A program made the translations under genes and the position numbers. The notes beneath the pieces were generated by a model that was given only the letters and a program-made list of their open reading frames with translations, ran no database searches and was not told where the DNA came from. A stretch of DNA of 64,000 nt from Candidatus Berkelbacteria bacterium (GTDB lineage Bacteria > Patescibacteriota > UBA1384 > DTJR01). The stretch is from assembly GCA_026397175.1 (NCBI GenBank), contig JAPLVK010000021.1:56989-120988 (forward strand). The letters run 5' to 3'. Every line of letters starts with the position of its first letter. Position 1 is the stretch's first letter. Positions 10,103 to 63,647 of the stretch are shown here, one piece after another.

Positions 10103-10282
10103 ATTTTATTGACATTCGCGAGATCCGTTTTAGGAATATTCAATTATGGATATTTGATTTCGTGTACCTTTTTCTCGATCGAGAAAAAGGTACACGAAAG
10201 TTCTGATATAAGTTGCAAAATTTGGCACTATTTTGATTATATTTTAGATCGAAGATTATCTTTTTAATTAAAAAACAAAACG

Positions 10283-10318
10283 GCCCGTCTCGAAAAATCG
10301 AGACGGGCCGGTGAATCT
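10283..10318 (-). terminator. Rho-independent terminator for the minus-strand gene ending at 10324
   Basis: On the minus strand, hairpin GGCCCGTCTCG-ATTTTT-CGAGACGGGCC is followed by GTTTTGTTTTTT. A second perfect inverted repeat (GTGTACCTTTTTCTCGATCGAGAAAAAGGTACAC) lies at about 10163-10196. Confidence 0.7.
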
Positions 10319-10323
10319 AGGAG

Positions 10324-11145
10324 CTACTGTCGTGCCAAAGGGTCAACCAACCCGGGCATCATGTCAATGCGATAACCGACCCACTCGAGTCGGGTAGCCG
10401 GCTGTACTTCATAGAAACGCTTGCTGACCAGACGGTCCACAGTCAGTTCCGCGAGGATGCTCGGTGATTTCTTGTTATCACGCATCCCGTAGAAACTGTT
10501 GCGAATCCGCCACAACATATGGTCAATGTGTACGCGATGCTCATCGGGGTTTTCCCCGGGACCGGAAACAATGTGTGCAGCGAGGTTAGAGATCTCGCCA
10601 AAGACGGGATGGCTATCCACGACATCATCACAGGTGTTGAGGGTTTCGCTGGTGAGTAGATCCGCCAAAAAGTCGGGCGGATAGAGCGCGTATCTGTTCC
10701 CGCTATCTGTGAAGTAATGTTTCCGATCCCTCGGAAGGTAGATCCAGGCGAGCGATTCGAAGACGCCGAGCAGCATGCCAGCCAGATACTCGGTCCCCCA
10801 GAATTTTGATGGCCACTTGTCGCTTGGTTCGATGATGGGATTGCATAGTCCGCGCAGCACTTGCCAATCGTTTGTGGCAACAGTGCACATAAGGCACAAG
10901 CCGGCGACATCCTCCGTTTCGTTTGTGGCCAGCATCATGCTCGTGATTGCTTGCTCGACCGGGAACTCATCGAGTGATACTGCATCCCAACCATCGCGCA
11001 GCGCCTTGAACACGCTAGTTAACAGCGCTTTGCCTTGTGGGTCTTGTGCTAGCGTTGTGTCCCCACTGGTCTCGTAGGCGTTCACCAGCTCGACCAGTGT
11101 TTCGACTCCACCTTTGCGACCAAACTGTCTCACATCCATGGTCAT
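10324..11145 (-). CDS. Hypothetical protein in a GC-rich island (no recognisable domain)
   Basis: 273-aa ORF at about 55-58% GC, in a locus of about 35% GC, with its own terminator and promoter region. I recognise no motifs in it. Confidence 0.55.
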   Translation of the reverse strand: MTMDVRQFGRKGGVETLVELVNAYETSGDTTLAQDPQGKALLTSVFKALRDGWDAVSLDEFPVEQAITSMMLATNETEDVAGLCLMCTVATNDWQVLRGLCNPIIEPSDKWPSKFWGTEYLAGMLLGVFESLAWIYLPRDRKHYFTDSGNRYALYPPDFLADLLTSETLNTCDDVVDSHPVFGEISNLAAHIVSGPGENPDEHRVHIDHMLWRIRNSFYGMRDNKKSPSILAELTVDRLVSKRFYEVQPATRLEWVGYRIDMMPGLVDPLARQ

Positions 11146-11169
11146 CTCCTCCTAAGAGATGGATTCCCT

Positions 11170-42655: not shown

Positions 42656-42946
42656 TTATTTCTTAGTATCTTGATCTGTTTTTGCTTCGTCTTTTGACTT
42701 CTTCTGGCTTTCTTGTTGCAGCTTGACATCTTGTTTTAGGGACTCTGACTTTTTAAGCCGAGCCATAAAACGGTCAACTCTTCCTGCGGTGTCAACCAGT
42801 TTTTTGTTGCCGGTATATAACGGGTGGCAATTTGAACAAATCTCAACTTGGATATTGTCGTTGGTTGAGCCAATTTCAAATTCAGCGCCACACGAGCACT
42901 TTACTTTCGCATTGTTGTAATATTTGGGATGGATATTTTGTTTCAT
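42656..42946 (-). CDS. rpmE: 50S ribosomal protein L31 with Lys-rich C-terminal extension
   Basis: MKQNIHPKYY…CSCGAEFEI…CSNCHPLYTG. The start is at 42946 after AAAGGAAA; the ORF-track start at 42982 is too far upstream. Confidence 0.8.
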   Translation of the reverse strand: MKQNIHPKYYNNAKVKCSCGAEFEIGSTNDNIQVEICSNCHPLYTGNKKLVDTAGRVDRFMARLKKSESLKQDVKLQQESQKKSKDEAKTDQDTKK

Positions 42947-43087
42947 TATTTTTCCTTTTATCTGACGAAATGATGGTACCATATCTTAATTTGTTTTTCA
43001 AGAATTCATTGCGTAATTTGGGTGTAAACAGATTGACAGCCATGTAATAATCTGCTATCATTTTGTTCTAAGAACCTTGAAAATTAT

Positions 43088-43186
43088 TCTTGAAGCCCCA
43101 GTGGTTATCTTTTTCTTGTCATTGCGAAGAGCTCCGCCAGCCGGCGGAGCGATGTGGCAATCTAAGATGGTCAGCGGGGCTTCAAG
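43088..43186. promoter_or_regulatory. 12-bp inverted repeat (TCTTGAAGCCCC…GGGGCTTCAAGA) enclosing an inner hairpin, at the 5' boundary of the GC-rich DGR target
   Basis: Arms at 43088-43099 and 43175-43186. Inner CTCCGCC-AGCC-GGCGGAG hairpin at about 43131-43148. Confidence 0.45.
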
Positions 43187-43246
43187 AATCCTGAACCCAC
43201 CACCTTGAAAGAAGGAGTGGGCAGGCAATAAAAGGAGGTGCTGACC

Positions 43247-43880
43247 GTGGGTGACACCACGCTCGGCGAAGCGCTCCGGCAGATAGCTGGACCGCTGAAA
43301 GATCTGCACGAGAAGCTGTCTGGTGAGGAAGGGCTTGTGTGGCTGGAGAAGCTGAAGAAGTTTCTTCGCAAGGAGAACCCCTGGGCCGAGGTGCAGAAGG
43401 TGGTTGTGGCTTTGCTCAAGTTCGTCAAGACGGTCGAGCTGCCGGCGGTCGGGGCATTCAAGCCCGAAGATCACTTCAAGGTCACTCCCGAGCGGGAACG
43501 CAAGACCGCCAAGGTGGTCATCGGCTATGTCAGCGATAATGTCAAGGCGCTCATCAAGGGCAGGTTGGAGCCGGAAGAGGCACAGGCCACTATCCGTATT
43601 CACGAACTCTGCCAGGCGTCCGTAGACGACCCGATTCTGGCCGAGCTAGGTGAGAATGTCAAGACGGGGCTCAATCGGATGTTCCAGATAATAGAGGAGC
43701 AAGGCCGTGGCCAAGAGGGCGACCTTCTGGTTGACGGCCGTGCCAACATCTTCTACATCGAGGGTACCGATTGGGCGGTCCTCTGCGACTGGCGCGCCGG
43801 CCCGCGGCTGGAACCTCTACGCCAGTCCGGTCTCTTCTCCGCGCAGTTGGAGCGCTGTCTACCGGGTCTTCTCCCGCTGA
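43247..43880 (+). CDS. DGR target (variable) protein, GC-rich; C-terminal VR. Reading frame disrupted or ambiguous by a 1-nt indel inside the VR
   Basis: GTG at 43247 sits 8 nt after AAAGGAGG. It is in frame with the AAC codons of the TR up to about 43804. After a 1-nt insertion relative to the TR, the TR-equivalent frame reads GWNLYASPVSSPRSWSAVYRVFSR and stops at 43878-43880. The ORF-track frame instead reads through to 43996. Confidence 0.6.
43771..43877 (+). repeat. DGR variable repeat (VR)
   Basis: Aligns to TR 44245-44353 with about 20 mismatches, every one at a TR adenine (A to C/T/G), no non-A substitutions, and a single 1-nt insertion near 43805. A GGGGC-TTTGT-GCCCC hairpin lies 20 nt downstream (43896-43910). 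Confidence 0.85.
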
Positions 43881-44244
43881 TTCTCTGGTATTTTGGGGCT
43901 TTGTGCCCCCTGTATCCGAGCCCCCCTTGTCCCTGTGACCCTTTGAAATCCCGCCTTTGGCGGGAAAGTAGAAGGGTCACTTTTCTGTTAAAATAAAAAT
44001 GAAGTTTGTGAAAGGCAACGGCTAGCCTTCGACCTTGCTCGGGCCAGGCGGCTTTTGCCCACAACTTTAGATTTTTGTTACAGAGAGTTGCTTTGGGTAC
44101 GCCTTGAGCGAGAATGGTTGCAAAAATCTCAAAAAATGAAGAGAATCGGTGCTTCCCATCAAGAGATTTTAGATCTCAATTAATATTCAGCGGAGCGATG
44201 TTGTATTTTGCCCGCAGTGATTATGAACGGCGGGTGGCACAAAC

Positions 44245-44353
44245 TTGGGCGGTCAACTGCAACTGGAACGCCGACAACGGCTGGAACCTCAACGCCAATC
44301 CGATCTCTAATCCGAACAGTTGGAACGCTGACAACCAGGTCTTCTCCCACGAC
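44245..44353 (+). repeat. DGR template repeat (TR), adenine-rich AAC-codon template
   Basis: aac tgc aac tgg aac gcc gac aac ggc tgg aac ctc aac gcc aat ccg … AAC-rich. Matches the VR except at adenines. Confidence 0.85.
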
Positions 44354-44749
44354 TCACTTCTTTTCTTCCGCTTCGGCGGAAGTTTTTGAAATGATTTTCT
44401 TTCTCCAACCACCAGTCATTCTCCCGATATTTTCTATTTCTTTGCCGATCTGGACAAATTGATTATTTGGAATAAGCTTTAGTTCCCAACAGTATTGAAT
44501 AAAAAAACGCAAAGAATCAATATATGACAAAGCGTCTTCGAGCAAGTGCACTTTTTTATTCAGAGGCGAGAATGAAGTTTTTTGAGCAATATCTAAAAGA
44601 TCAATAAAAAGAGAATCAATTTTGTGTCCCAAACCAAAGCGTTCACACTTTGGCATATTGCGCTGAATTTGAATCCAGCTTTTATAAGCATTTTTGATAT
44701 GTTCAATGATAGGTAAAGTGGGGTTATCGTGAAAAGAATTATTAGTCAT
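44354..44749 (-). CDS. avd: Four-helix-bundle protein of the Avd / 23S-rRNA-IVS family (DGR accessory variability determinant-like)
   Basis: KCERFGLGHKIDSLFIDLLDIAQKTSF…YCWELKLIPNNQFVQIGKEIENIGRMTGGW matches the IVS/Avd family pattern. It abuts the TR and diverges from the RT, with a 21-nt overlap of 5' ends. Confidence 0.65.
   Translation of the reverse strand: MTNNSFHDNPTLPIIEHIKNAYKSWIQIQRNMPKCERFGLGHKIDSLFIDLLDIAQKTSFSPLNKKVHLLEDALSYIDSLRFFIQYCWELKLIPNNQFVQIGKEIENIGRMTGGWRKKIISKTSAEAEEKK
44365..44392 (+). terminator. Hairpin plus T-run immediately 3' of TR (CTTCCGC-TTCG-GCGGAAG-TTTTT)
   Basis: Seen in the + strand sequence. Only the + strand has the T-tract. It lies inside the 3' end of the oppositely oriented avd-like ORF. 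Confidence 0.5.
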
Positions 44750-45751
44750 AAATTTGAAGAAATAATCTCAATTAATAATTTGTTTTTAGCATGGCAGGAA
44801 TTTGCTGAAAATAAAAGGAAACGAGCTGATGTACGGGCGTTTTCGCATAATTTGATGGGTAATGTTCTTGCTCTCCATCAGGATCTTAGCAATTTTAGAT
44901 ATCATCATGCAGATTACGAGGAATTTTATATTACCGATCCGAAGCCAAGAGTTATTCACAAAGCAACAGTGCGGGATCGTCTGCTGCATCGTGCGATTTA
45001 TCGGGTTCTCTATCCACTATTTAATTCAACATTTGTCTTTGATAGTTATTCCTGCCGGAAGGAAAAAGGAACGCACAAAGCGTTTAAACGGCTGGTTAAA
45101 ATTGCGAGACAGCAAAGTAAAAATTACTCTGGTTCTTGTTGGGCGTTAAAGTGCGATGTAAAAAAGTTTTTTCATAGCATTGACCATCAGGTTTTGGTTA
45201 ATCTCTTGTCGCAAAGAACTTCCGATGAGCGGCTAATTAATTTACTCAAAGAAATTATTGAAAGTTTTGCGGTTTGCGGGCGGAACGCAAACCTAAACAA
45301 TAAAAAAGGAATACCCCTCGGAAATTTGACTTCACAATTATTTGCCAATATTTACATGGACCCGCTTGATAAATTTGTCAAACACAAACTTAAAGCCAAA
45401 TATTATCTGCGATACGCTGACGATTTTATGATCTTAGCCAAAAATTCTGAAGTTTTACGAGATTATTTACAAGAAATTGATCATTTCTTAACCAATCATC
45501 TTAAACTTTCGCTTCATCCCGACAAAATCACTTTTCGCAAACTGAACTGGGGCTTGGATTTTGTCGGCTATGTTACATATCCAAAATTCAATTTGCCGAG
45601 ACCGAAAACTGTCGAAAGAATGTTTAGAAATCTTGAAGAAATAAAGAGAAATAGACCCGAGAAATTAAATAAAAGTTTGCAGTCATATCTTGGTTATCTT
45701 GAACATGTAGATGCCAAAGCAATTTCTGATTATTTGAAATTGCTTTATTAA
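44729..45751 (+). CDS. DGR reverse transcriptase (RT domains only, 340 aa)
   Basis: N-terminal NLFLAWQEFAENKRKR…YEEFYITDPKPRVIHKATVRDRLLHRAIY. RT motif C is RYADDFMIL. No maturase or endonuclease domain. GTG start. Confidence 0.85.
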   Translation: MKRIISHKFEEIISINNLFLAWQEFAENKRKRADVRAFSHNLMGNVLALHQDLSNFRYHHADYEEFYITDPKPRVIHKATVRDRLLHRAIYRVLYPLFNSTFVFDSYSCRKEKGTHKAFKRLVKIARQQSKNYSGSCWALKCDVKKFFHSIDHQVLVNLLSQRTSDERLINLLKEIIESFAVCGRNANLNNKKGIPLGNLTSQLFANIYMDPLDKFVKHKLKAKYYLRYADDFMILAKNSEVLRDYLQEIDHFLTNHLKLSLHPDKITFRKLNWGLDFVGYVTYPKFNLPRPKTVERMFRNLEEIKRNRPEKLNKSLQSYLGYLEHVDAKAISDYLKLLY

Positions 45752-57753: not shown

Positions 57754-58455
57754 ATGACCGAAAAATACAGACAATTTGCAGCAGGACAAAATGCAGTGAA
57801 TAATTTGCTCTCGGGCAAATATTCGCTGACTCGGGCCATGAAACCACCGGCCAAGAAAATTCTTGGCTGCATAGACGACGGAATCGAAGAAGCGCAAAGC
57901 AGGGCGGCGGGATCGTACATTCTTCTCGGGGAAGACGAAGCGATGAAGTTGGTTTGGCAAAACGGCTTTGAGTACATCGGATTTCACGATGACTGCGGAG
58001 CTGTCAAGAAATACCTTGAAGATAAGGGTGTTTTCGAACCATCGTCCGAGCAAGTAAACCAAGAGTCCAAACGGTGGGCGAAGCGTTTGGCTCAACTCAC
58101 GAAATGCAAAGCCAAAAAGATGGAATTGACTCGCGGTCATCATCACGAGGCGCGCATTGCATACTACGATGGCACTGGCAAGATGACCAGCACGATGGGG
58201 CTGCCCAAGGGATTTATTATTTCAAGGGGAGTTTTGCGCCGCGACTACGCATGTTCCGAGATGGTAACGGCAACCGATATCGCCTTCAACCATGGCTTCA
58301 ACGAACTATATTCTCCAGAACGCTCGTTTATTTGGGCGGCTCTCGGCAAAGATCAAAACCACGCCGCAGAGCTTGAAGGGGAACTCAAACCCATACTTTC
58401 TCGTCTCACGCATTTTGAGTTGGGAGCGATCAAGGTCATCGCGATTTCTCTCTAG
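57754..58455 (+). CDS. Hypothetical protein with beta-carbonic-anhydrase-like Cys…HxxCG arrangement (very tentative)
   Basis: LGCIDDGIEE … FHDDCGAVKK resembles beta-CA CxDxR / HxxCG metal-binding motifs but lacks the Arg. Intermediate GC. Confidence 0.3.
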   Translation: MTEKYRQFAAGQNAVNNLLSGKYSLTRAMKPPAKKILGCIDDGIEEAQSRAAGSYILLGEDEAMKLVWQNGFEYIGFHDDCGAVKKYLEDKGVFEPSSEQVNQESKRWAKRLAQLTKCKAKKMELTRGHHHEARIAYYDGTGKMTSTMGLPKGFIISRGVLRRDYACSEMVTATDIAFNHGFNELYSPERSFIWAALGKDQNHAAELEGELKPILSRLTHFELGAIKVIAISL

Positions 58456-58507: not shown

Positions 58508-58627
58508 TCACAGGCGATCGGAGTCCTTATTTTTTTAAGGATCTCGATCGCCTGTTTTGTTATACAAATTTTCCGATCGGAAAATTTGTATAACAAAACA
58601 GGCGATCGAGATCCTTAAAAAAATAAG
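58508..58627. repeat. 120-bp perfect palindrome (60-bp arms, no spacer) centred on CCGATCGG
   Basis: ATCGGAGTCCTTATTTTTTTAAGGATCTCGATCGCCTGTTTTGTTATACAAATTTTCCGA|TCGGAAAATTTGTATAACAAAACAGGCGATCGAGATCCTTAAAAAAATAAGGACTCCGAT. It contains multiple CGATCG sites and TGTTATACAAA (DnaA-box-like, 7/9 match to TTATCCACA). Confidence 0.85.
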
Positions 58628-58639
58628 GACTCCGATTGG

Positions 58640-58900
58640 CAAAACTGCTGACAGCTAAGAGATGTTAGTGGTAGATATATAAATTTTCTGTACGGAAAAA
58701 TCGTATATTTTAACAGTTTTATTTTTTAATTTATATTTTTATTTATGATCACATTTATACAAAAAGAAACGATCGTTCCGTTTTGTATAACAGAATTTAT
58801 ATTTTTTGTTTTTAAAATTTTTAAATTGCAAAAATTTGCATTGGGGGTTTAAATTTGATTCAATAAAATACTCACCTGATATGGTGAGAAGTCGCAACTT
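58640..58900. other. Extremely AT-rich tract (about 20% GC) with degenerate copies of palindrome sub-motifs
   Basis: TTTTCTGTACGGAAAAATC (58672-58690) is a degenerate copy of TTTTCCGATCGGAAAA. TATACAAAAAGAAACGATCGTTCCGTTTTGTATAAC (58760-58795). A TTGCAA-17-TTAAAT promoter for the downstream operon at about 58827-58857. Confidence 0.5.
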
Positions 58901-58924
58901 GACATCGAAATGGAGGCAAGAGAA

Positions 58925-59707
58925 ATGAACGGTAATTTTTTGGGTCGTTTGTCATTGAAGGATATCGTCGCGATGACCGAGGTGGTATCTCCAGAGATCA
59001 TTGCCGAGGAGATTGTCCAAGGTGGTCTGGTTCATATCCGCAATGTGGCTGATGGCGAGGAGGCGTATCACTACTCGAGCGGTAACTGGGGACCGATGTA
59101 TGTAACTGTCAAAGGGGGGTGCAGCAACCAGAACTTGTTCAAATTTATGGCACGCCAGCTTTCTCTGCGTGTCAGCGACATCACCGACTTCGATTTCGTT
59201 GCTGGGCTTGTAACTGGTGGCGTTCCGCCCTCGATCTACCTGCGGGACTGGGTGCAGGAAATGCAAGACAGGGAAATTCCCTGGGTTTACATTCGGGACA
59301 CACGCAAGCTTGGCGGCACCAAGGAGCATGTGACCGGACTCTATATGCCGAACGGCCAGCGTAGTTTGTTCATACCCGAGGGCGCAGTTGGGTTAGTGGT
59401 GGAAGAACTGGTGAACTATGCCAACTCGACTACCAATGGGGCTATTTTGCTCCGGAGTGAAGAGTGTAAGTGTGGCTGTCGCCGGGGTGTAACCATCTTG
59501 GATTATGACAACCCTGTAGCGCACAAATATCGTGCCAAGTACAATGTCGAACTGACTAGCGTGGTCAAGATGACCGAAGTGCTGGATGCTATCCAGCGGA
59601 TTGGTCTCTACTCTGACGATTTGGTCGAGGATGCCCGCTGGTCACAACGCGACCCGCAGGAATGGATGGGTTTCTACGGTCTCGAGAAGACGGAACTCAA
59701 GAAGTAA
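58925..59707 (+). CDS. Type-I phosphoribosyltransferase-like protein with degenerate PRPP loop, GC-rich
   Basis: YHYSSGNWGPMYVTVKG (compare OPRT FxLSSGxxSPxYxD), VAGLVTGGVPPS, and a PRPP-loop position reading LVVEELVNYANS instead of VxDVxTTGGS. GGAGG RBS. The likely start is 58925; the ORF-track start is 58910. Confidence 0.5.
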   Translation: MNGNFLGRLSLKDIVAMTEVVSPEIIAEEIVQGGLVHIRNVADGEEAYHYSSGNWGPMYVTVKGGCSNQNLFKFMARQLSLRVSDITDFDFVAGLVTGGVPPSIYLRDWVQEMQDREIPWVYIRDTRKLGGTKEHVTGLYMPNGQRSLFIPEGAVGLVVEELVNYANSTTNGAILLRSEECKCGCRRGVTILDYDNPVAHKYRAKYNVELTSVVKMTEVLDAIQRIGLYSDDLVEDARWSQRDPQEWMGFYGLEKTELKK

Positions 59708-59756
59708 CCATAGGTGCGTGATTAAGCGCCTGAATGATTAATAGGGATGTGTAAAC

Positions 59757-60503
59757 ATGGATCGTGACGCGATGGTTAAAACTCTGCCACTACTTTTCGT
59801 AGCACTCGACGACTCGTCGCTACCGAAGGTGATGGAGCGTGCCAGTACCGTTACACAGGTGACTGGCAATTACGGCTTCAAGGTCAACCTCGATGCTATG
59901 CTGGGTGTCGGTGTCGAGAACGCGCTCAATGCTGTTGCCCAGTTCGGGAAGCCGATCTTCGCCGACTTCAAGATGTACAATGGTGCTCGGACGATGTCCG
60001 AGATGGTGCAGGCGGCCGCTCGCAGTGGTGCTGTGCTCACCAATGTGTTTGCCGGTAATGCTCCCAACCTTCTCCGGAAAGTGGCCATAGCGGCCTCTGG
60101 TGATGAGGAGCATAAGGTGCCACCGATCTTGGTCTATGGCATCGGCCCCTTGACACACCTAACTGACGAGGACTGCCAGTGTATCTACGGCTGCAATTTT
60201 GAAGCAGCCACAGTACGCCTGGGCGAAATCACGGTGAAGGCAGGTTTGGATGGTTACATTGGCCCGGGCAGAATGAACCGTGCCTTGAACATCTTACAGC
60301 TCCCGCTTCTCAACCCGGCAGTCAGGCCTGACTGGTACGAGGACCCGAAGGCCAATGACCAGGAGCAGACGGTAACGCCAACCCAAGCGATTGTCGTTGC
60401 CGAGAAAAAGGTTGTACTCGTCTGCGGCAGCCCAATCTTCAAGAGCCCAGACCCGGAAGCGGCGCTCAAGAGGATTCTCGACGAGATCGCCAGAGCCGCC
60501 TAA
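59757..60503 (+). CDS. OMP-decarboxylase-superfamily (ribulose-phosphate-binding barrel) protein with non-canonical catalytic motif, GC-rich
   Basis: LLFVALDD…GFKVNLDAML…IFADFKMYNGART (DxK kept, downstream Asp replaced) …LVYGIGP…VVLVCGSPIFKSPDP, resembling the PyrF/KGPDC/HPS family. Confidence 0.5.
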   Translation: MDRDAMVKTLPLLFVALDDSSLPKVMERASTVTQVTGNYGFKVNLDAMLGVGVENALNAVAQFGKPIFADFKMYNGARTMSEMVQAAARSGAVLTNVFAGNAPNLLRKVAIAASGDEEHKVPPILVYGIGPLTHLTDEDCQCIYGCNFEAATVRLGEITVKAGLDGYIGPGRMNRALNILQLPLLNPAVRPDWYEDPKANDQEQTVTPTQAIVVAEKKVVLVCGSPIFKSPDPEAALKRILDEIARAA

Positions 60504-60537
60504 TCGGCCAAACCGCCTGACACAAGGAGGAATCAAT

Positions 60538-60717
60538 ATGTGTCTGGCTAATCCGTCAGGTCTTACCTCGCGCGACACAGCGAGTAGTATCTCCGACATT
60601 GCGAAGACCTGCTGCGTCTGTGGCTACGAACTCGACCCGGGTGACTATGATCCCGAGAAGAGCCCATTTGCCCAGAAGCACAAAACCAGGGTTTTATGCT
60701 CCACTTCGAGCAAGTAG
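60538..60717 (+). CDS. Small Cys-containing protein (59 aa) ending the GC-rich operon
   Basis: MCLANPSGLTSRDTASSISDIAKTCCVCGYELDPGDYDPEKSPFAQKHKTRVLCSTSSK. The ATG lies 8 nt after AGGAGG. Confidence 0.4.
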   Translation: MCLANPSGLTSRDTASSISDIAKTCCVCGYELDPGDYDPEKSPFAQKHKTRVLCSTSSK

Positions 60718-60730
60718 CTTACCATTCAGG

Positions 60731-60770
60731 GCCAGCACCCGCATCTTATCGGGGTTGCTGGCTCTTTTTT
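60731..60770 (+). terminator. Rho-independent terminator of the GC-rich operon
   Basis: GCCAGCACCCG-CATCTTAT-CGGGGTTGCTGGC followed by TCTTTTTTT. Confidence 0.75.
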
Positions 60771-60858: not shown

Positions 60859-61312
60859 TTGGAGGCAATTTGGCTTACAATTTTTGACATTAGATAGAAC
60901 ATAAAGCAGAGCAAGCCCAGCTTTCTGCTGGGCTATTATAGTCAAAAAAAACCAAAAGCCCTGAAATTTGACAAATGGATTTCCTGTTAACCCATTAGAC
61001 CTGGGAGCATTTAAATATGCATTAACGGGAAAAATCATCGGTTTGACAAAACCAGATGAGGAAGTGTTGAGGACACTTTACAGAAAAAATCCTCGTCAAT
61101 TCAAATTGAATTAAAGAGCCAGAATTGCTTTCAAGGCAATTCACTCAAATTCTTTACTAAGAGTTTGATCCTGGCTCAGGATGAACGCTAGCGGTGTACC
61201 TAAAACATGCAAGTCGTACGCTTGTAAAAGCGTGGCGAACGGGTGAGTAACGCGTGGGAATCTGCCTCAATCCGGGAAATACCTTGCCGAAAGGTGAGTT
61301 AATGTCCCATGA

Positions 61313-61739
61313 GATGGTAGCTAGTCATTGGTAGTTAGTTACTGGTAAAATGAGTTCATGATTTATAATGGACTCGATGTCTATAAACGAGCATACAAGT
61401 TGGCAATAGAAATACATAAGTTCTCCTTAGAACTTCCAAGATATTTACATAATGATATCGGAAGTCAAATAAGAAGATCCTCAAGATCGATTCCTTCTCA
61501 AATAGCAGAAGGTTTCTCTAGAAATAAATCAGATAAAGACAAGAAAAATTTCTTAAGAGATGCTCTTGGCTCAAACGAAGAAATGCTCTTCAATCTCAAG
61601 TTTATGAGAGATACGGATCTTATAAATTTAGAGAAGTATGAGTATTTCTTTAGCGAGTATGTTATCTGCGGAAAGCAGCTAATGAACTTGATGAAAAGTA
61701 TAGATACCAGAAACTAGCGACTAGCGACTAGTTACCATC
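61313..61739 (+). other. Intervening sequence (IVS) in 16S rRNA: 14-bp extended stem (GATGGTAGCTAGTC / GACTAGTTACCATC) closing a roughly 400-nt loop that encodes a protein
   Basis: The stem halves lie at 61313-61326 and 61726-61739. Flanking rRNA sequence is continuous with the conserved 16S 5' domain. Confidence 0.65.
61358..61717 (+). CDS. Four-helix-bundle protein of the rRNA-IVS family, encoded inside the 16S IVS
   Basis: YKRAYKLAIEIHKFSLELPRYLHNDIGSQIRRSSRSIPSQIAEGFSR is the family signature (…GLxSQIRRAAVSIPxNIAEG…). Same family as the Avd-like ORF at 44354-44749. Confidence 0.7.
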   Translation: MIYNGLDVYKRAYKLAIEIHKFSLELPRYLHNDIGSQIRRSSRSIPSQIAEGFSRNKSDKDKKNFLRDALGSNEEMLFNLKFMRDTDLINLEKYEYFFSEYVICGKQLMNLMKSIDTRN

Positions 61740-62279
61740 AAAGCTCCGGCGGATTGAGAGGAGCCTGCGTCCTATCAGCTTGTTGGTGGGGTAAAAGCCT
61801 ACCAAGGCAACGACGGGTAGCTGGTCTGAGAGGATGGTCAGCCACAATGGGACTGAGACACGGCCCATACACCTACGGGTGGCAGCAGTTAGGAATCGTA
61901 CACAATGGGGGAAACCCTGATGTCGTGACACCGCGTGAAGGATGAAGGTTTTCGGATCGTAAACTTCTTTTCTATGGGAGGATTATGACTTAACCATAGG
62001 AATAAGCATCGGCTAACTACGTGCCAGAAGCCTCGGTAATACGTAGGATGCGAGCGTTATCCGGTCTTATTGGGCGTAAAGAGCGCGTAGGCGGCCCGGC
62101 AAGTCCAATCTTAAATCCCATGGCTCAACCATGGAGCTGGATTGGATACTACCTGGCTTGAACACTTGCAGGGGTATGCGGAATCTACGGTGTAGGAGTA
62201 AAATCCATTGATATCGTAGAGAACACCAATGGCGAAGGCAGCTTGCTAGGCATTCACTGACGCTGAGGCGCGAAAGCGT

Positions 62280-62313
<34 letters not shown>

Positions 62314-62816
62314 ACGCCGTAAACGATGCGGACTAGGTATTGGGATCATCGACCGTCCTTGTACCAAAGCAAACGCGTTAAGTCCGCCGCCTGGGGAGTA
62401 CGAGCGCAAGCTTAAAACTCAAAGGAATTGGCGGGGGCTCGCACAAGCGGTGGAACATGTGGTTTAATTCGACAGTAAGCGGAGCACCTCACCAAGGTTT
62501 GACATCTATGGAATCCTGATGAAAGTCGGGAGTGCCCGCAAGGGAGCCGTAAGACAGGTGCTGCACGGTCGTCGTCAGCTCGCGGCATGAGCTGTTCCGT
62601 TAACTCGGGACACGAGCGCAACCCCGATCGTCTGTTAAATTTCCACACGTGTTACAATGGCCGGTACAGAGGGTTGCAATATCGCGAGATGGAGCTAATC
62701 CCTAAAGCCGGTCCCAGTTCGGATTGGAGTCTGAAACTCGACTACATGCAGTCGGAATTGCTAGTAACCGTAGATCAGAACGATCCGGTGAATACGTCCT
62801 CGAGCCTTGCACACAA

Positions 62817-63647
62817 ATGTAAAGACGCATGGCAGTTTGATTAACTAAGTCGTGGAAATCGACTCCTCCGATACGCCATCGGAGCGTAGCTTAAAGCAGG
62901 TCCAACCTCGTGAGAGATGGACTAGAGGGCTAAATGGCAATTTGCAGCGGGCAGGCGAAAACCTGTACTGACTTATGTTAGGCGGTTGTGGCCTAGGGAA
63001 AGTACAATAAAAAGGTTGCTCGATGTAGAAAATAGCTAATCAAATGATCCATGGAGATCTTGCCTATGATAACGCAAACAAGGGCAAGAAGTCAGCCTGT
63101 TCATAGTAGACGCTGTGGTATAATGTATTTACCATGACGCAGCGTCAAAGGGACAGACCTAAGATTCTGTCACCAGAATATCTAGTCGGCTTAACTGATG
63201 GCGAAGGTTGCTTTTATGTTAACATTCGCCCGCCGCGATCAAAAAATGGCTTGCCTCAAGTAGAATTTCATTTCTACATTAAGTTAAGAGGCGACCACTT
63301 GGATCTTCTAAAAAAAGTCCAAAAATCTTTTGGTTGCGGAGCAGTGTATCGCCAAGCCGAGAAGCGAGCAAATCATAGCGAATGCTATCGGTTTGAAATA
63401 AACTCGCGAAAAGATATAAATCGTGTACTAGTACCGTTTTTCTTGCACTATCCCTTGCAGGGTCCGAAATCAAATGATTTTGCGACCTTCTGTAAAATTT
63501 TCAACCTTGTTTTGCAAGGTGAGAATAGTACAGAAAAGGGACTAGTTAAAATTAAACGGTTGAAAGAAAAAATGAATCTTGGGGCCCGCCGAGTGTGGAA
63601 AATCCGCTTGCTCGGTGGCAACGTGAAGTAGCGTTAACTATCACAAT
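62817..63647 (+). mobile_element. Insertion of 831 nt (probable intron) in 16S between …CCTTGCACACA and CCGCCCGTCA… (E. coli position about 1400), carrying a LAGLIDADG homing endonuclease
   Basis: Conserved 16S sequence breaks at 62816 and resumes at 63648. Insertions at this site with homing endonuclease ORFs are known in CPR 16S genes. Confidence 0.65.
63134..63631 (+). CDS. LAGLIDADG-family homing endonuclease (single-motif, 165 aa)
   Basis: YLVGLTDGEGCFYVNI is the LAGLIDADG motif. The size resembles I-CreI-type homodimeric enzymes. Confidence 0.75.
   Translation: MTQRQRDRPKILSPEYLVGLTDGEGCFYVNIRPPRSKNGLPQVEFHFYIKLRGDHLDLLKKVQKSFGCGAVYRQAEKRANHSECYRFEINSRKDINRVLVPFFLHYPLQGPKSNDFATFCKIFNLVLQGENSTEKGLVKIKRLKEKMNLGARRVWKIRLLGGNVK

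What the first reader, a model, noticed from the sequence alone, without database searches (positions are those of the whole stretch)
43088..44400. The DGR target and TR are GC-rich while avd and RT are AT-rich
Within a single functional cassette, the target gene and TR (43.1-44.4 kb) are about 58% GC. The accessory gene and RT immediately downstream are about 35% GC, like the host genome. The 5' boundary of the GC-rich block is marked by a 12-bp inverted repeat that encloses a hairpin. This suggests modular exchange of the diversified 'payload' (target+TR) between DGRs, or recent capture of a foreign target. The alternative is an assembly chimera.
Basis: inference. Interest (0 to 1): 0.55.

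Follow-up and report, generated by a model that had tools for sequence, protein, structure and literature searches.

The report
GC-rich variable-protein gene in a DGR
The GC-rich block is real and is the variable-protein gene and template repeat of a Patescibacteria diversity-generating retroelement; the same GC-rich codon choice recurs in this kind of gene across dozens of genomes, so it is not a mis-assembly and not a one-off foreign capture.

Summary
Window 43088-43996 is 57.8% GC, the TR is 56%, and avd and RT are 34-35%. A 13-bp perfect inverted repeat lies at the 5' edge.

An assembly chimera is refuted. Two independent assemblies are 100% identical to the window from rpmE to the RT stop.

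Amino-acid or AAC codon demand is refuted. Only third codon positions are shifted (GC3 0.74 against 0.30-0.43 in host genes).

A one-off capture is not supported. In 61 of 68 related loci the homologous gene has a higher four-fold GC than its host. The target value stays near 0.69 whatever the host value (0.16-0.75). RT tracks the host.

Three or more unrelated small target families next to related RTs show the same signature. All homologs found are from Patescibacteria-type genomes.

Modular exchange does occur. The unit is usually the target body, lying between a conserved leader hairpin and the VR. In deeper swaps it is target+TR+avd against RT.

Avd is inherited with the target yet is AT-rich, so the composition boundary is not a module-origin boundary. 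A gene-specific force acts on synonymous sites. Its cause is unresolved; my first guess is recombination-linked GC-biased conversion.

The window's VR carries a fixed +1 frameshift.

The parts
43033..43061 (+). Promoter-like site TTGACA-17-TATCAT with TG before the -10 hexamer. It lies in AT-rich DNA outside the conserved cassette.
   Evidence: 11 of 12 matches. Comparable TTGACA-17-TATAAT-like sites lie upstream of the leaders in L090, L097, L101, L105, L121 and L022, read directly from the sequences.
43086..43189 (+). Leader hairpin of about 104 nt at the 5' edge of the GC-rich block and of the cassette homology. Perfect 13-nt base arms TTCTTGAAGCCCC / GGGGCTTCAAGAA; the apical part varies between loci.
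   Evidence: (z = -5.4). Homology with L087 starts at 43083. The same element lies upstream of W-type targets (L087, L019, L020, L090) and of unrelated X-type targets (L098). L097 and L101 carry compensatory changes.
43190..43225 (+). Second small leader hairpin, followed by the Shine-Dalgarno AGGAGG at 43233-43238.
   Evidence: for the fold. One search shows compensatory differences against L087, L019 and L020 (CCACCTT/AAGGAGT against AGCTCTT/AAGAGAT).
43247..43770 (+). Body (non-VR part) of the variable-protein gene, starting at GTG 43247. GC 58.5%, GC3 0.74; four-fold sites A .06, C .40, G .35, T .19.
   Evidence: It belongs to a family of 113 proteins with no Pfam domain. AlphaFold2 model pLDDT 92.6.
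43771..43880 (+). VR. About 20 substitutions against the TR, all at TR adenines, plus a 1-nt insertion near 43799-43803 that shifts the frame. The frame-corrected stop is TGA 43878-43880; the ORF as it stands runs on to 43996.
   Evidence: The corrected protein aligns end to end with the family and ends ...RVFSR. The identical frameshifted ORF is present in six other assemblies.
43895..43980 (+). GC-rich inverted repeats downstream of the VR: GGGGC..GCCCC at 43895-43909, and a nested hairpin GTGACCCTT..AAGGGTCAC at 43935-43980 followed by a T-run.
   Evidence: z = -5.5. Its role as the IMH-associated hairpin or a terminator is inferred from published DGR anatomy (PMC5758913).
44010..44244 (+). 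Conserved non-coding region immediately 5' of the TR; candidate structured 5' domain of the DGR RNA.
   Evidence: conserved blocks with apparent compensatory changes across 37 loci. It is 76-90% identical to L087 where avd and RT are 66-70%. No Rfam match. The left end is approximate.
44245..44353 (+). TR (8 AAC and 2 AAT codons in the target's frame) with the IMH*-like end.
44365..44390 (+). Terminator-like hairpin CTTCCGC-TTCG-GCGGAAG plus a T-run directly after the TR. It lies inside the 3' end of avd on the opposite strand.
   Evidence: It is conserved with compensatory changes across the family.
44354..44749 (-). avd (131 aa), GC 34.3%, transcribed divergently from RT.
   Evidence: bAvd 6.9e-10; 39.8 bits against a cut-off of 40. 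It clusters by target type, not by RT.
44729..45751 (+). DGR reverse transcriptase (340 aa), GC 35.2%. It contains LGNLTSQ and YADD. Cassette homology with L087 ends at its stop codon.
   Evidence: the motifs are read directly from the translation.

Best explanation
Shown: the block is the expressed half of a Patescibacteria-type DGR cassette spanning 43083-45751. In order it holds a strong promoter, a conserved leader hairpin, a small variable-protein gene (body plus VR), GC-rich hairpins, a DGR RNA (5' conserved domain, TR, terminator), then avd on the minus strand and RT on the plus strand.

Shown: the high GC comes from C- and G-ending synonymous codons. This is a standing property of the small variable-protein genes served by this DGR clade. 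Their four-fold GC stays near 0.7 whatever the host composition, with or without an adjacent RT. Avd and RT have host-like composition.

Shown: it is not a chimera, not driven by amino-acid use, not a one-off capture, and not spill-over of adenine mutagenesis.

Shown: target bodies are replaced by recombination between the conserved leader and the VR. On longer time scales target+TR+avd are re-paired with different RTs.

Inferred: avd shares the target's history but not its composition, so a gene-specific force must hold the target's synonymous sites GC-rich. I commit to GC-biased repair or conversion linked to the frequent recombination of the target body as the most likely cause (about 35-40%). 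Selection on the transcript or the DNA is close behind (about 30%). The confidence of 0.6 covers the whole statement: about 0.85 for the descriptive parts and about 0.35-0.4 for the named cause.
For: Anatomy.

Chimera: L081 and L083, from different sequencing runs, are identical to window 42656-45751. Six runs carry the exact ORF.

Synonymous origin: window target GC1/2/3 is .67/.33/.74 against host GC3 of .30-.43. Over 62 loci, positions 1 and 2 equal host genes. Four-fold sites are A .11, C .44, G .25, T .19 in targets against .21/.27/.25/.28 in host genes (Wilcoxon p from 1e-8 to 1e-11 for A, C and T).

Autonomy: target GC4 is .694 (sd .12). It is .66.70 and .72 across host terciles spanning .16-.75. 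The target exceeds the host in 61 of 68 loci and is the top ORF of its locus in 42 of 68. RT GC4 tracks the host (slope .56, r .73); the target barely does (slope .31, r .35). Targets without a nearby RT show the same shift (+.21 against +.17).

Other families: unrelated targets next to RTs 51-65% identical to the window's are also 60-64% GC. Their avd, RT and flanks are 32-44% GC.

Exchange: L008 and L015 are 94-100% identical across the whole cassette except the target body at 74-85%. L087 and L020 show leader 95%, body 32-63%, and VR through TR 85-100%. Window against L087 gives body pS .31, RT pS .76 and avd pS .84. W-type targets are polyphyletic on the RT tree.

Avd follows the target type: 42-91% identity within W, 26-32% between W and X, although the RTs are 62-70% identical.
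Against: The cause of the codon bias is not demonstrated. GC-biased conversion predicts equal gain of G and C, but only C rises (G .25 in both targets and hosts). It also predicts some rise in GC1 and GC2, and almost none is seen family-wide. There is no GC3 gradient along the gene. The C-terminal domain, which is inherited with TR and avd, is as GC-rich as the swapped part. Some related DGRs do not show the shift at all (L126, L133 and L140 with a 650-aa AAA-ATPase + CLec target; L109). The lower pS of targets is partly an effect of codon bias, because pS saturates at about .45-.7 in these genes. Host GC4 was estimated from mechanically called ORFs in flanks of at most 8 kb.
Confidence: 0.6

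Rival explanations
1. Selection on synonymous sites of the target transcript or its DNA. Examples would be a long-lived, highly expressed mRNA (strong promoter, 5' stabilising hairpin, GC-rich body, 3' hairpins), or a DNA or RNA property needed for retrohoming.
For: Only wobble positions are shifted; positions 1 and 2 equal host genes. GC4 sits at a set point independent of host. The bias is towards C specifically, not G+C symmetrically. A consensus promoter and a very stable leader hairpin are present. The same signature appears in unrelated families, which suggests convergence. Synonymous divergence is reduced.
Against: No selected property has been identified. The coding region folds only marginally better than shuffles (z = -1.9). 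Ribosomal and translation genes in the window show no such bias (rpsB four-fold C .23), so ordinary translational selection is unlikely. Other DGR targets, both in Patescibacteria and in phages, lack the shift.
Confidence: 0.3
2. Target+TR was captured recently from a GC-rich foreign genome, or belongs to a horizontally circulating GC-rich gene pool that stays too briefly in any host to take on its composition.
For: Target GC4 does not track the host. Target bodies have histories decoupled from avd and RT. Cassettes sit in unrelated genomic contexts. The window also holds other GC-rich islands that look acquired.
Against: All 113 + 17 homologs that carry names are Patescibacteria-type. None is found in 2.9 million viral contigs. 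The proteins have host-like first and second codon positions, not the amino-acid make-up of GC-rich organisms. Avd and the TR-linked C-terminal domain share one history, yet avd is AT-rich. Target and RT identities are still correlated (Mantel r .49).
Confidence: 0.1
3. Spill-over of DGR adenine mutagenesis. Long cDNAs would read past the TR into the co-oriented target and erode adenines over the whole gene.
For: A is the rarest base at four-fold sites (.06 in the window.11 family-wide). The block's edges roughly match a transcript running from about 43069 to about 44390.
Against: T is depleted as well and G does not rise. The family's own A-to-N spectrum in VRs is G 179, T 109, C 59, the opposite of the C excess. 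A at codon positions 1 and 2 is normal. There is no gradient towards the VR. Targets without a nearby RT or TR show the same bias.
Confidence: 0.04
4. Assembly chimera that joined a GC-rich fragment to an AT-rich genome.
For: The compositional edges are sharp. Several Logan contigs end about 190 nt after the ORF.
Against: Two independent assemblies from different runs span both junctions and are identical to the window over 3096 nt. The TR on the AT-rich side matches the VR on the GC-rich side. The same layout appears in more than 40 other loci.
Confidence: 0.01
5. The GC excess is explained by amino-acid or codon demands (AAC, Cys, Trp and scaffold codons without adenine).
For: This explains part of the VR (69% GC) and the TR (56% GC). 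GC-rich invariant flanks of TR and VR are known (PMC5758913).
Against: The 524-nt body outside the VR is 58.5% GC with GC2 .33 and GC3 .74. Family-wide, positions 1 and 2 equal host genes.
Confidence: 0.02

Closest known systems
Diversity-generating retroelements (Bordetella phage BPP-1 mtd-avd-TR-brt as prototype; Patescibacteria/CPR DGRs from published metagenomic surveys)
   Same: An RT with LGxxxSQ and YADD. An Avd-like protein. A TR/VR pair differing only at TR adenines. The VR at the 3' end of the target. GC-rich inverted repeats after the VR. AAC-rich TR.
   Different: avd is inverted and lies between TR and RT. A conserved domain of about 230 nt lies 5' of the TR, and a terminator hairpin follows the TR directly. 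In BPP-1, by my recollection of the literature, the functional spacer is 3' of the TR. A conserved leader hairpin precedes the target. The target has no Pfam domain and no Foldseek match, so a CLec fold is not confirmed. The target body has GC-rich wobble positions, which three phage DGRs checked here lack.
Whole-DGR atypical GC content used as a sign of horizontal transfer (Wu et al. 2018, PMC5758913)
   Same: Composition of DGR DNA differs from the host.
   Different: That work compares the whole DGR with the host; about 20% deviate by 5% or more. Here the split lies inside the cassette, is confined to synonymous sites of the target, and persists across hosts. I found no report of this in two literature searches.
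Gene-conversion antigenic-variation loci with raised GC in AT-rich genomes (for example Borrelia vls; recalled from memory, not tested here)
   Same: A diversified surface-protein locus is much more GC-rich than its AT-rich genome and recombines often.
   Different: A different diversification mechanism (silent cassettes, no RT). The resemblance is only a lead for the biased-conversion idea.
Integron gene cassettes with attC hairpins
   Same: Unrelated ORFs share an imperfect hairpin with a conserved base and a variable centre at one boundary. The ORFs are exchanged between related platforms.
   Different: The hairpin is 5' of the ORF and lies in the likely 5' UTR. There is no integrase and no arrays. 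Exchange can be explained by homologous recombination between conserved flanks. Membership is not proposed.

Membership tests
Diversity-generating retroelement | Reverse transcriptase of the DGR type (RVT_1 with the (I/L/V)GxxxSQ motif and YxDD) | tested here: met
   RVT_1 at 1.1e-27. LGNLTSQ and YADD are read in the translation. The best phage relatives are DGR RTs.
Diversity-generating retroelement | TR/VR repeat pair whose differences fall at TR adenines | tested here: met
   About 105 nt; all roughly 20 substitutions are at TR adenines. One non-canonical 1-nt insertion in the VR. In 33 related loci, 347 of 354 differences are at A.
Diversity-generating retroelement | VR at the 3' end of an intact target ORF | tested here: inconclusive
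   The position is right, but the +1 insertion near 43799 breaks the frame. The corrected protein matches the family end to end. The same frameshift is in all seven assemblies.
Diversity-generating retroelement | Accessory variability determinant (Avd) | tested here: met
   bAvd at 6.9e-10, 39.8 bits, 0.2 bits under Pfam's cut-off. A 120-130 aa ORF holds the same position and strand in related cassettes.
Diversity-generating retroelement | IMH/IMH* ends and a GC-rich inverted repeat downstream of the VR | tested here: met
   VR and TR diverge after GGTCTTCTCCC. Hairpins lie at 43895-43909 and 43935-43980, z = -5.5. Their function is inferred, not tested.
Diversity-generating retroelement | Ongoing diversification (VR heterogeneity among reads or samples) | tested here: not met
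   An identical VR protein sequence occurs in six Logan assemblies and in the window. Read-level data are not available, so low-level activity cannot be excluded.
C-type-lectin-fold DGR variable proteins | Recognisable CLec, FGE-sulfatase or DUF1566 domain, or structural similarity to Mtd or TvpA | tested here: not met
Recently transferred genomic island from a GC-rich donor | Codon and amino-acid composition of a GC-rich donor, relatives in such donors, and composition shared by the co-transferred genes | tested here: not met
   Positions 1 and 2 are host-like. Relatives occur only in Patescibacteria-type genomes. The co-inherited avd is AT-rich.

The most novel reading that the evidence does not exclude
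The small variable-protein genes of this Patescibacteria DGR clade form a pool of exchangeable cassettes. Unrelated ORFs would be slotted between a shared leader hairpin and the VR/TR/avd or RT, with the hairpin acting as a recombination or boundary site rather than only as a 5' UTR element. Their host-independent GC-rich wobble composition would then be the signature of that continual recombination. That would be a bacterial case of strong, locus-specific GC-biased conversion tied to a diversification system.
Probability: 0.2. Interest if true: 0.75.

Novelty: new variant of a known kind. Interest (0 to 1): 0.55.

Why it matters
DGRs are usually treated as cohesive units whose deviation from host GC signals recent transfer. 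Here one half of the cassette keeps a composition of its own in hosts ranging from 16% to 75% four-fold GC, while the other half follows the host.

If the cause is recombination-linked biased conversion, this gives a sharply bounded natural test case for that process in bacteria. If the cause is selection, it points to an unrecognised requirement on DGR target transcripts or target DNA.

In practice, the signature could flag DGR targets and orphan targets in AT-rich Patescibacteria genomes. It also warns against reading within-cassette GC jumps as chimeras or recent captures. The shared leader hairpin and the conserved 5' domain of the TR RNA are candidate functional elements that could be tested in a reconstituted system.

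Tried and rejected
- **Rfam.** No family matched the leader or the region before the TR.
- **First related-loci search.** The 32-sequence alignment was too diverse. A 15-sequence alignment worked.
- **General DGR property.** Three phage DGRs (BalMu-1, FP_Lagaffe and a hankyphage-like phage) have target GC4 at or below RT GC4.
- **Adenine-erosion model.** Rejected on the substitution spectrum and on the depletion of T.
- **Gradient towards the VR.** None was found.
- **R-loop idea (G-rich sense strand).** The window's body has G > C, but the family mean does not. Dropped.
- **Translational selection.** Translation genes in the window are unbiased.
- **Antisense ORF 43058-43603.** Treated as a by-product of GC-rich wobble positions, not as a gene.
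- **Conserved insertion site or empty site.** No other locus shares the rpmE/rpsB context.
- **Phage carriage.** No hits in viral contigs.
- **Leader motif elsewhere in the window.** It occurs only at the DGR.
Full report
**1. The observation**

The window is 40.8% GC. The stretch 43088-43996 is 57.8% GC, the most GC-rich 900-nt window in the 64 kb. Segment values:

| Segment | Coordinates | GC |
|---|---|---|
| 150 nt upstream | 42947-43096 | 30% |
| leader | 43097-43246 | 54% |
| target body | 43247-43770 | 58.5% |
| VR | 43771-43880 | 69% |
| spacer | 43881-44244 | 46.7% |
| TR | 44245-44353 | 56% |
| avd | 44354-44749 | 34.3% |
| RT | 44729-45751 | 35.2% |

.

The inverted repeat exists. 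Perfect 13-nt arms at 43087-43099 and 43176-43188 form the base of a hairpin of about 104 nt with an inner stem GCTCCGCC/GGCGGAGC. As RNA it folds at z = -5.4 against shuffles.

**2. Anatomy**

- The RT matches RVT_1 at 1e-27 and contains LGNLTSQ and YADD. Avd matches bAvd at 7e-10 and lies on the minus strand, divergent from RT.
- VR 43771-43875 and TR 44245-44348 differ at about 20 positions, all at TR adenines. The VR also has one extra base near 43799-43803, which shifts the frame.
- With that base removed, the gene runs from GTG 43247 (preceded by AGGAGG) to TGA 43878-43880. It encodes 210 aa that align end to end with a family of 113 proteins ending ...RVFSR.
- A near-consensus promoter lies at 43033-43061. 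Hairpins follow the VR at 43895-43980 (z = -5.5). A terminator-like hairpin follows the TR at 44365-44390.
- The window comes from a Candidatus Berkelbacteria contig.

**3. Chimera**

The exact frameshifted 249-aa ORF is encoded on contigs from six independent Logan assemblies of different sequencing runs. Two of these contigs (L081, L083) span rpmE to RT and are identical to window 42656-45751 at all 3096 positions. Both compositional junctions are therefore reproduced. So are the frameshift and the exact VR. A chimera is excluded as far as assemblies can show. There is also no sign of current diversification.

**4. Codon or amino-acid demand**

In the window the target body has GC1/GC2/GC3 of .67/.33/.74. 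Host genes have GC3 of .30-.43.

Across 62 loci with homologous targets, codon positions 1 and 2 have the same base composition as flanking host genes, and only position 3 differs. At four-fold sites the target bodies are A .11, C .44, G .25, T .19, against A .21, C .27, G .25, T .28 in hosts (Wilcoxon p about 1e-8 to 1e-11 for A, C and T). RT equals host. Codon demand explains part of VR and TR only.

**5. One-off capture or family property**

A scan of 185,579 species genomes returned 80 loci with homologs, almost all labelled Patescibacteria. The target is more GC-rich than its locus in all 80. Where an RT is adjacent it is more GC-rich than that RT, by up to 30 points. The layout target(+)-TR-avd(-)-RT(+) recurs throughout.

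- Target GC4 averages .694 (sd .12). It is .66, .70 and .72 for host terciles of .16-.44, .46-.59 and .60-.75.
- It exceeds the host in 61 of 68 loci and is the highest of all ORFs of at least 150 aa in its locus in 42 of 68.
- RT GC4 follows the host (slope .56, r .73). The target hardly does (slope .31, r .35).
- Targets with no RT within reach show the same shift (+.21 against +.17).
- There is no gradient along the gene.

Eighty further loci were chosen by RT similarity alone. Only 6 of 42 with enough upstream sequence carry this target family. The closest RTs sit next to unrelated small targets in the same layout: L097 and L098 (64-65% identical), L101 (60%), L105 (54%) and L121 (51%). 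None of these targets matches the family HMM or Pfam. All five are again 60-64% GC with GC4 of .66-.84, while their avd, RT and flanks are 32-44% GC.

Two other target types lack the shift outside the VR: a 650-aa AAA-ATPase with a classical ...GFRVAVVLGT end (L126, L133, L140) and a 240-aa protein (L109). Three phage DGRs lack it as well.

Homologs of the second family are again few, and the only named one is from Berkelbacteria. Neither the first family nor the leader motif occurs in IMG/VR.

**6. Modular exchange**

Target and RT identities are correlated (Mantel r .49, p <= .0005). The window's nearest RT (L087, 70%) also has the nearest target (84% over the body). But the histories are discordant at every scale.

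- **L008 and L015** lie in unrelated flanks. They share a cassette 94-100% identical from about 117 nt upstream of the target to the RT stop, except the target body at 74-85%. Body pS is .43, against .16 for RT and .06 for avd.
- **L087 and L020**: leader 95%, target body 32-63%, VR through spacer, DGR RNA and TR 85-100%, avd 73-93%, RT about 70%.
- **Window and L087**: homology begins exactly at the left arm of the leader hairpin (43083) and ends at the RT stop. The body core 43358-43758 is about 92% identical with pS .31. The TR is about 79%, avd has pS .84 and RT has pS .76.
- **RT neighbour-joining tree**: the window's target type appears in three separate places, with the second type nested beside the window's clade.
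- **Avd**: it groups by target type, not by RT. Identity is 42-91% within the window's type and 26-32% between types, although the RTs are 62-70% identical.

So exchange is real. The units are the target body, between the conserved leader and the VR, or target+TR+avd against RT. The unit is not 'target+TR'.

**7. What the composition split means**

Avd and the TR-linked C-terminal domain travel together, yet avd is AT-rich. The proteins also have the amino-acid-level composition of their hosts. The split therefore cannot be a mark of different origin. A gene-specific force must act on the synonymous sites of the target.

Adenine-mutagenesis spill-over is rejected. T is also depleted, G does not rise, and the family's A-to-N spectrum is G 179 > T 109 > C 59, whereas C is the base that is enriched. 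Ordinary translational selection is unlikely, because rpsB and typA in the window are unbiased.

Two candidates remain:

- **Recombination-linked GC-biased conversion.** In favour: the target body is demonstrably the recombining segment. Against: the C-only gain and the unchanged GC1 and GC2.
- **Selection on the transcript or the DNA.** In favour: a wobble-only shift, a set point independent of host, a strong promoter and a stabilising leader. Against: no property has been identified, and the coding-region fold is only z = -1.9.

I rank them at about .35-.40 and .30. This step is inference.

**8. Comparison and novelty**

The element is a DGR by every structural criterion tested. Activity is not evident. 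The target's fold could not be assigned: pLDDT is 92.6, with no Foldseek hit in PDB or BFVD.

Wu et al. (PMC5758913) used whole-DGR GC against the host as a transfer signal and described GC-rich flanks of TR and VR. [quoted passage not shown] In two full-text searches I found no report of a within-cassette, synonymous-site split that is independent of host. Absence from that library is not proof of novelty.

**9. Verdict**

The thing itself is a typical member of a Patescibacteria DGR clade. That clade's small targets carry a conserved and unexplained GC-rich codon signature and a shared leader hairpin. Interest is moderate.

Noticed in passing
window 43795-43806: The VR has a 1-nt insertion relative to the TR. 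It frameshifts the last 27 or so codons of the variable protein. The same broken ORF is present in all seven assemblies, so the target is a fixed pseudogene or an 'off' state that a new retrohoming event could repair.
   Followed up: partly
window 44010-44244; also the 230 or so nt upstream of the TR in 36 related loci (L002-L080, L087): A conserved non-coding domain lies 5' of the TR, with blocks such as GAGAGTTGC..GGGTA.GCCTT..GAGAG and GAATCGGTGC, and apparent compensatory changes. A terminator hairpin follows the TR directly. It is probably the functional DGR RNA of this clade. There is no Rfam family for it.
   Followed up: partly
window 43086-43189; L098:5-71, L097:2145-2195, L090:5870-5936, L087:5791-5917, L020:7688-7742, L019:3015-3114: The same leader hairpin (conserved base, variable centre) precedes variable-protein genes of two unrelated families, and also a target copy with no RT nearby. 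Homology between cassettes starts exactly at its left arm.
   Followed up: partly
avd genes of the window, L087, L020, L018, L022, L003, L014 against L097, L098, L099, L101: Avd sequence follows the target/TR type (26-32% identity between types), while the adjacent RTs are 62-70% identical. This implies recombination between avd and RT.
   Followed up: yes
model of the frame-corrected protein from window 43247-43880: A confident AlphaFold2 model (pLDDT 92.6) has no Foldseek match in PDB or BFVD and no Pfam domain. The variable protein may not be a canonical C-type-lectin fold.
   Followed up: partly
L090:6001-7484 (Logan SRR22388308): Two tandem GC-rich paralogs of the target sit inside a dcw cluster (between ftsI and a Mur ligase gene), with no avd or RT within 3.6 kb. 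At least three genomes in the GTDB scan hold two or three copies on different contigs.
   Followed up: partly
window 10300-11150, 57800-58450, 58900-60750: There are other gene-bounded GC-rich islands (GC3 .55-.67), including an OMP-decarboxylase-like gene at 59757-60503 and three ORFs with no Pfam hit. Their four-fold composition leans the same way as the target's (C > G, A low) but more mildly.
   Followed up: partly
window 58517-58636 and 10158-10199: There are perfect palindromes with no loop: 60+60 nt between two GC-rich genes, and 21+21 nt beside another GC-rich gene. They may be real hairpin elements or assembly artefacts.
   Followed up: no
window 61153-62851: The 16S rRNA match spans 1699 nt for a 1533-position model, so it holds about 166 nt of inserted sequence.
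   Followed up: no
L082, L084, L085, L086: Four Logan contigs carrying the target all end 192 nt after the frameshifted ORF's stop, just before the TR. This probably reflects graph breaks at the VR/TR repeat.
   Followed up: no
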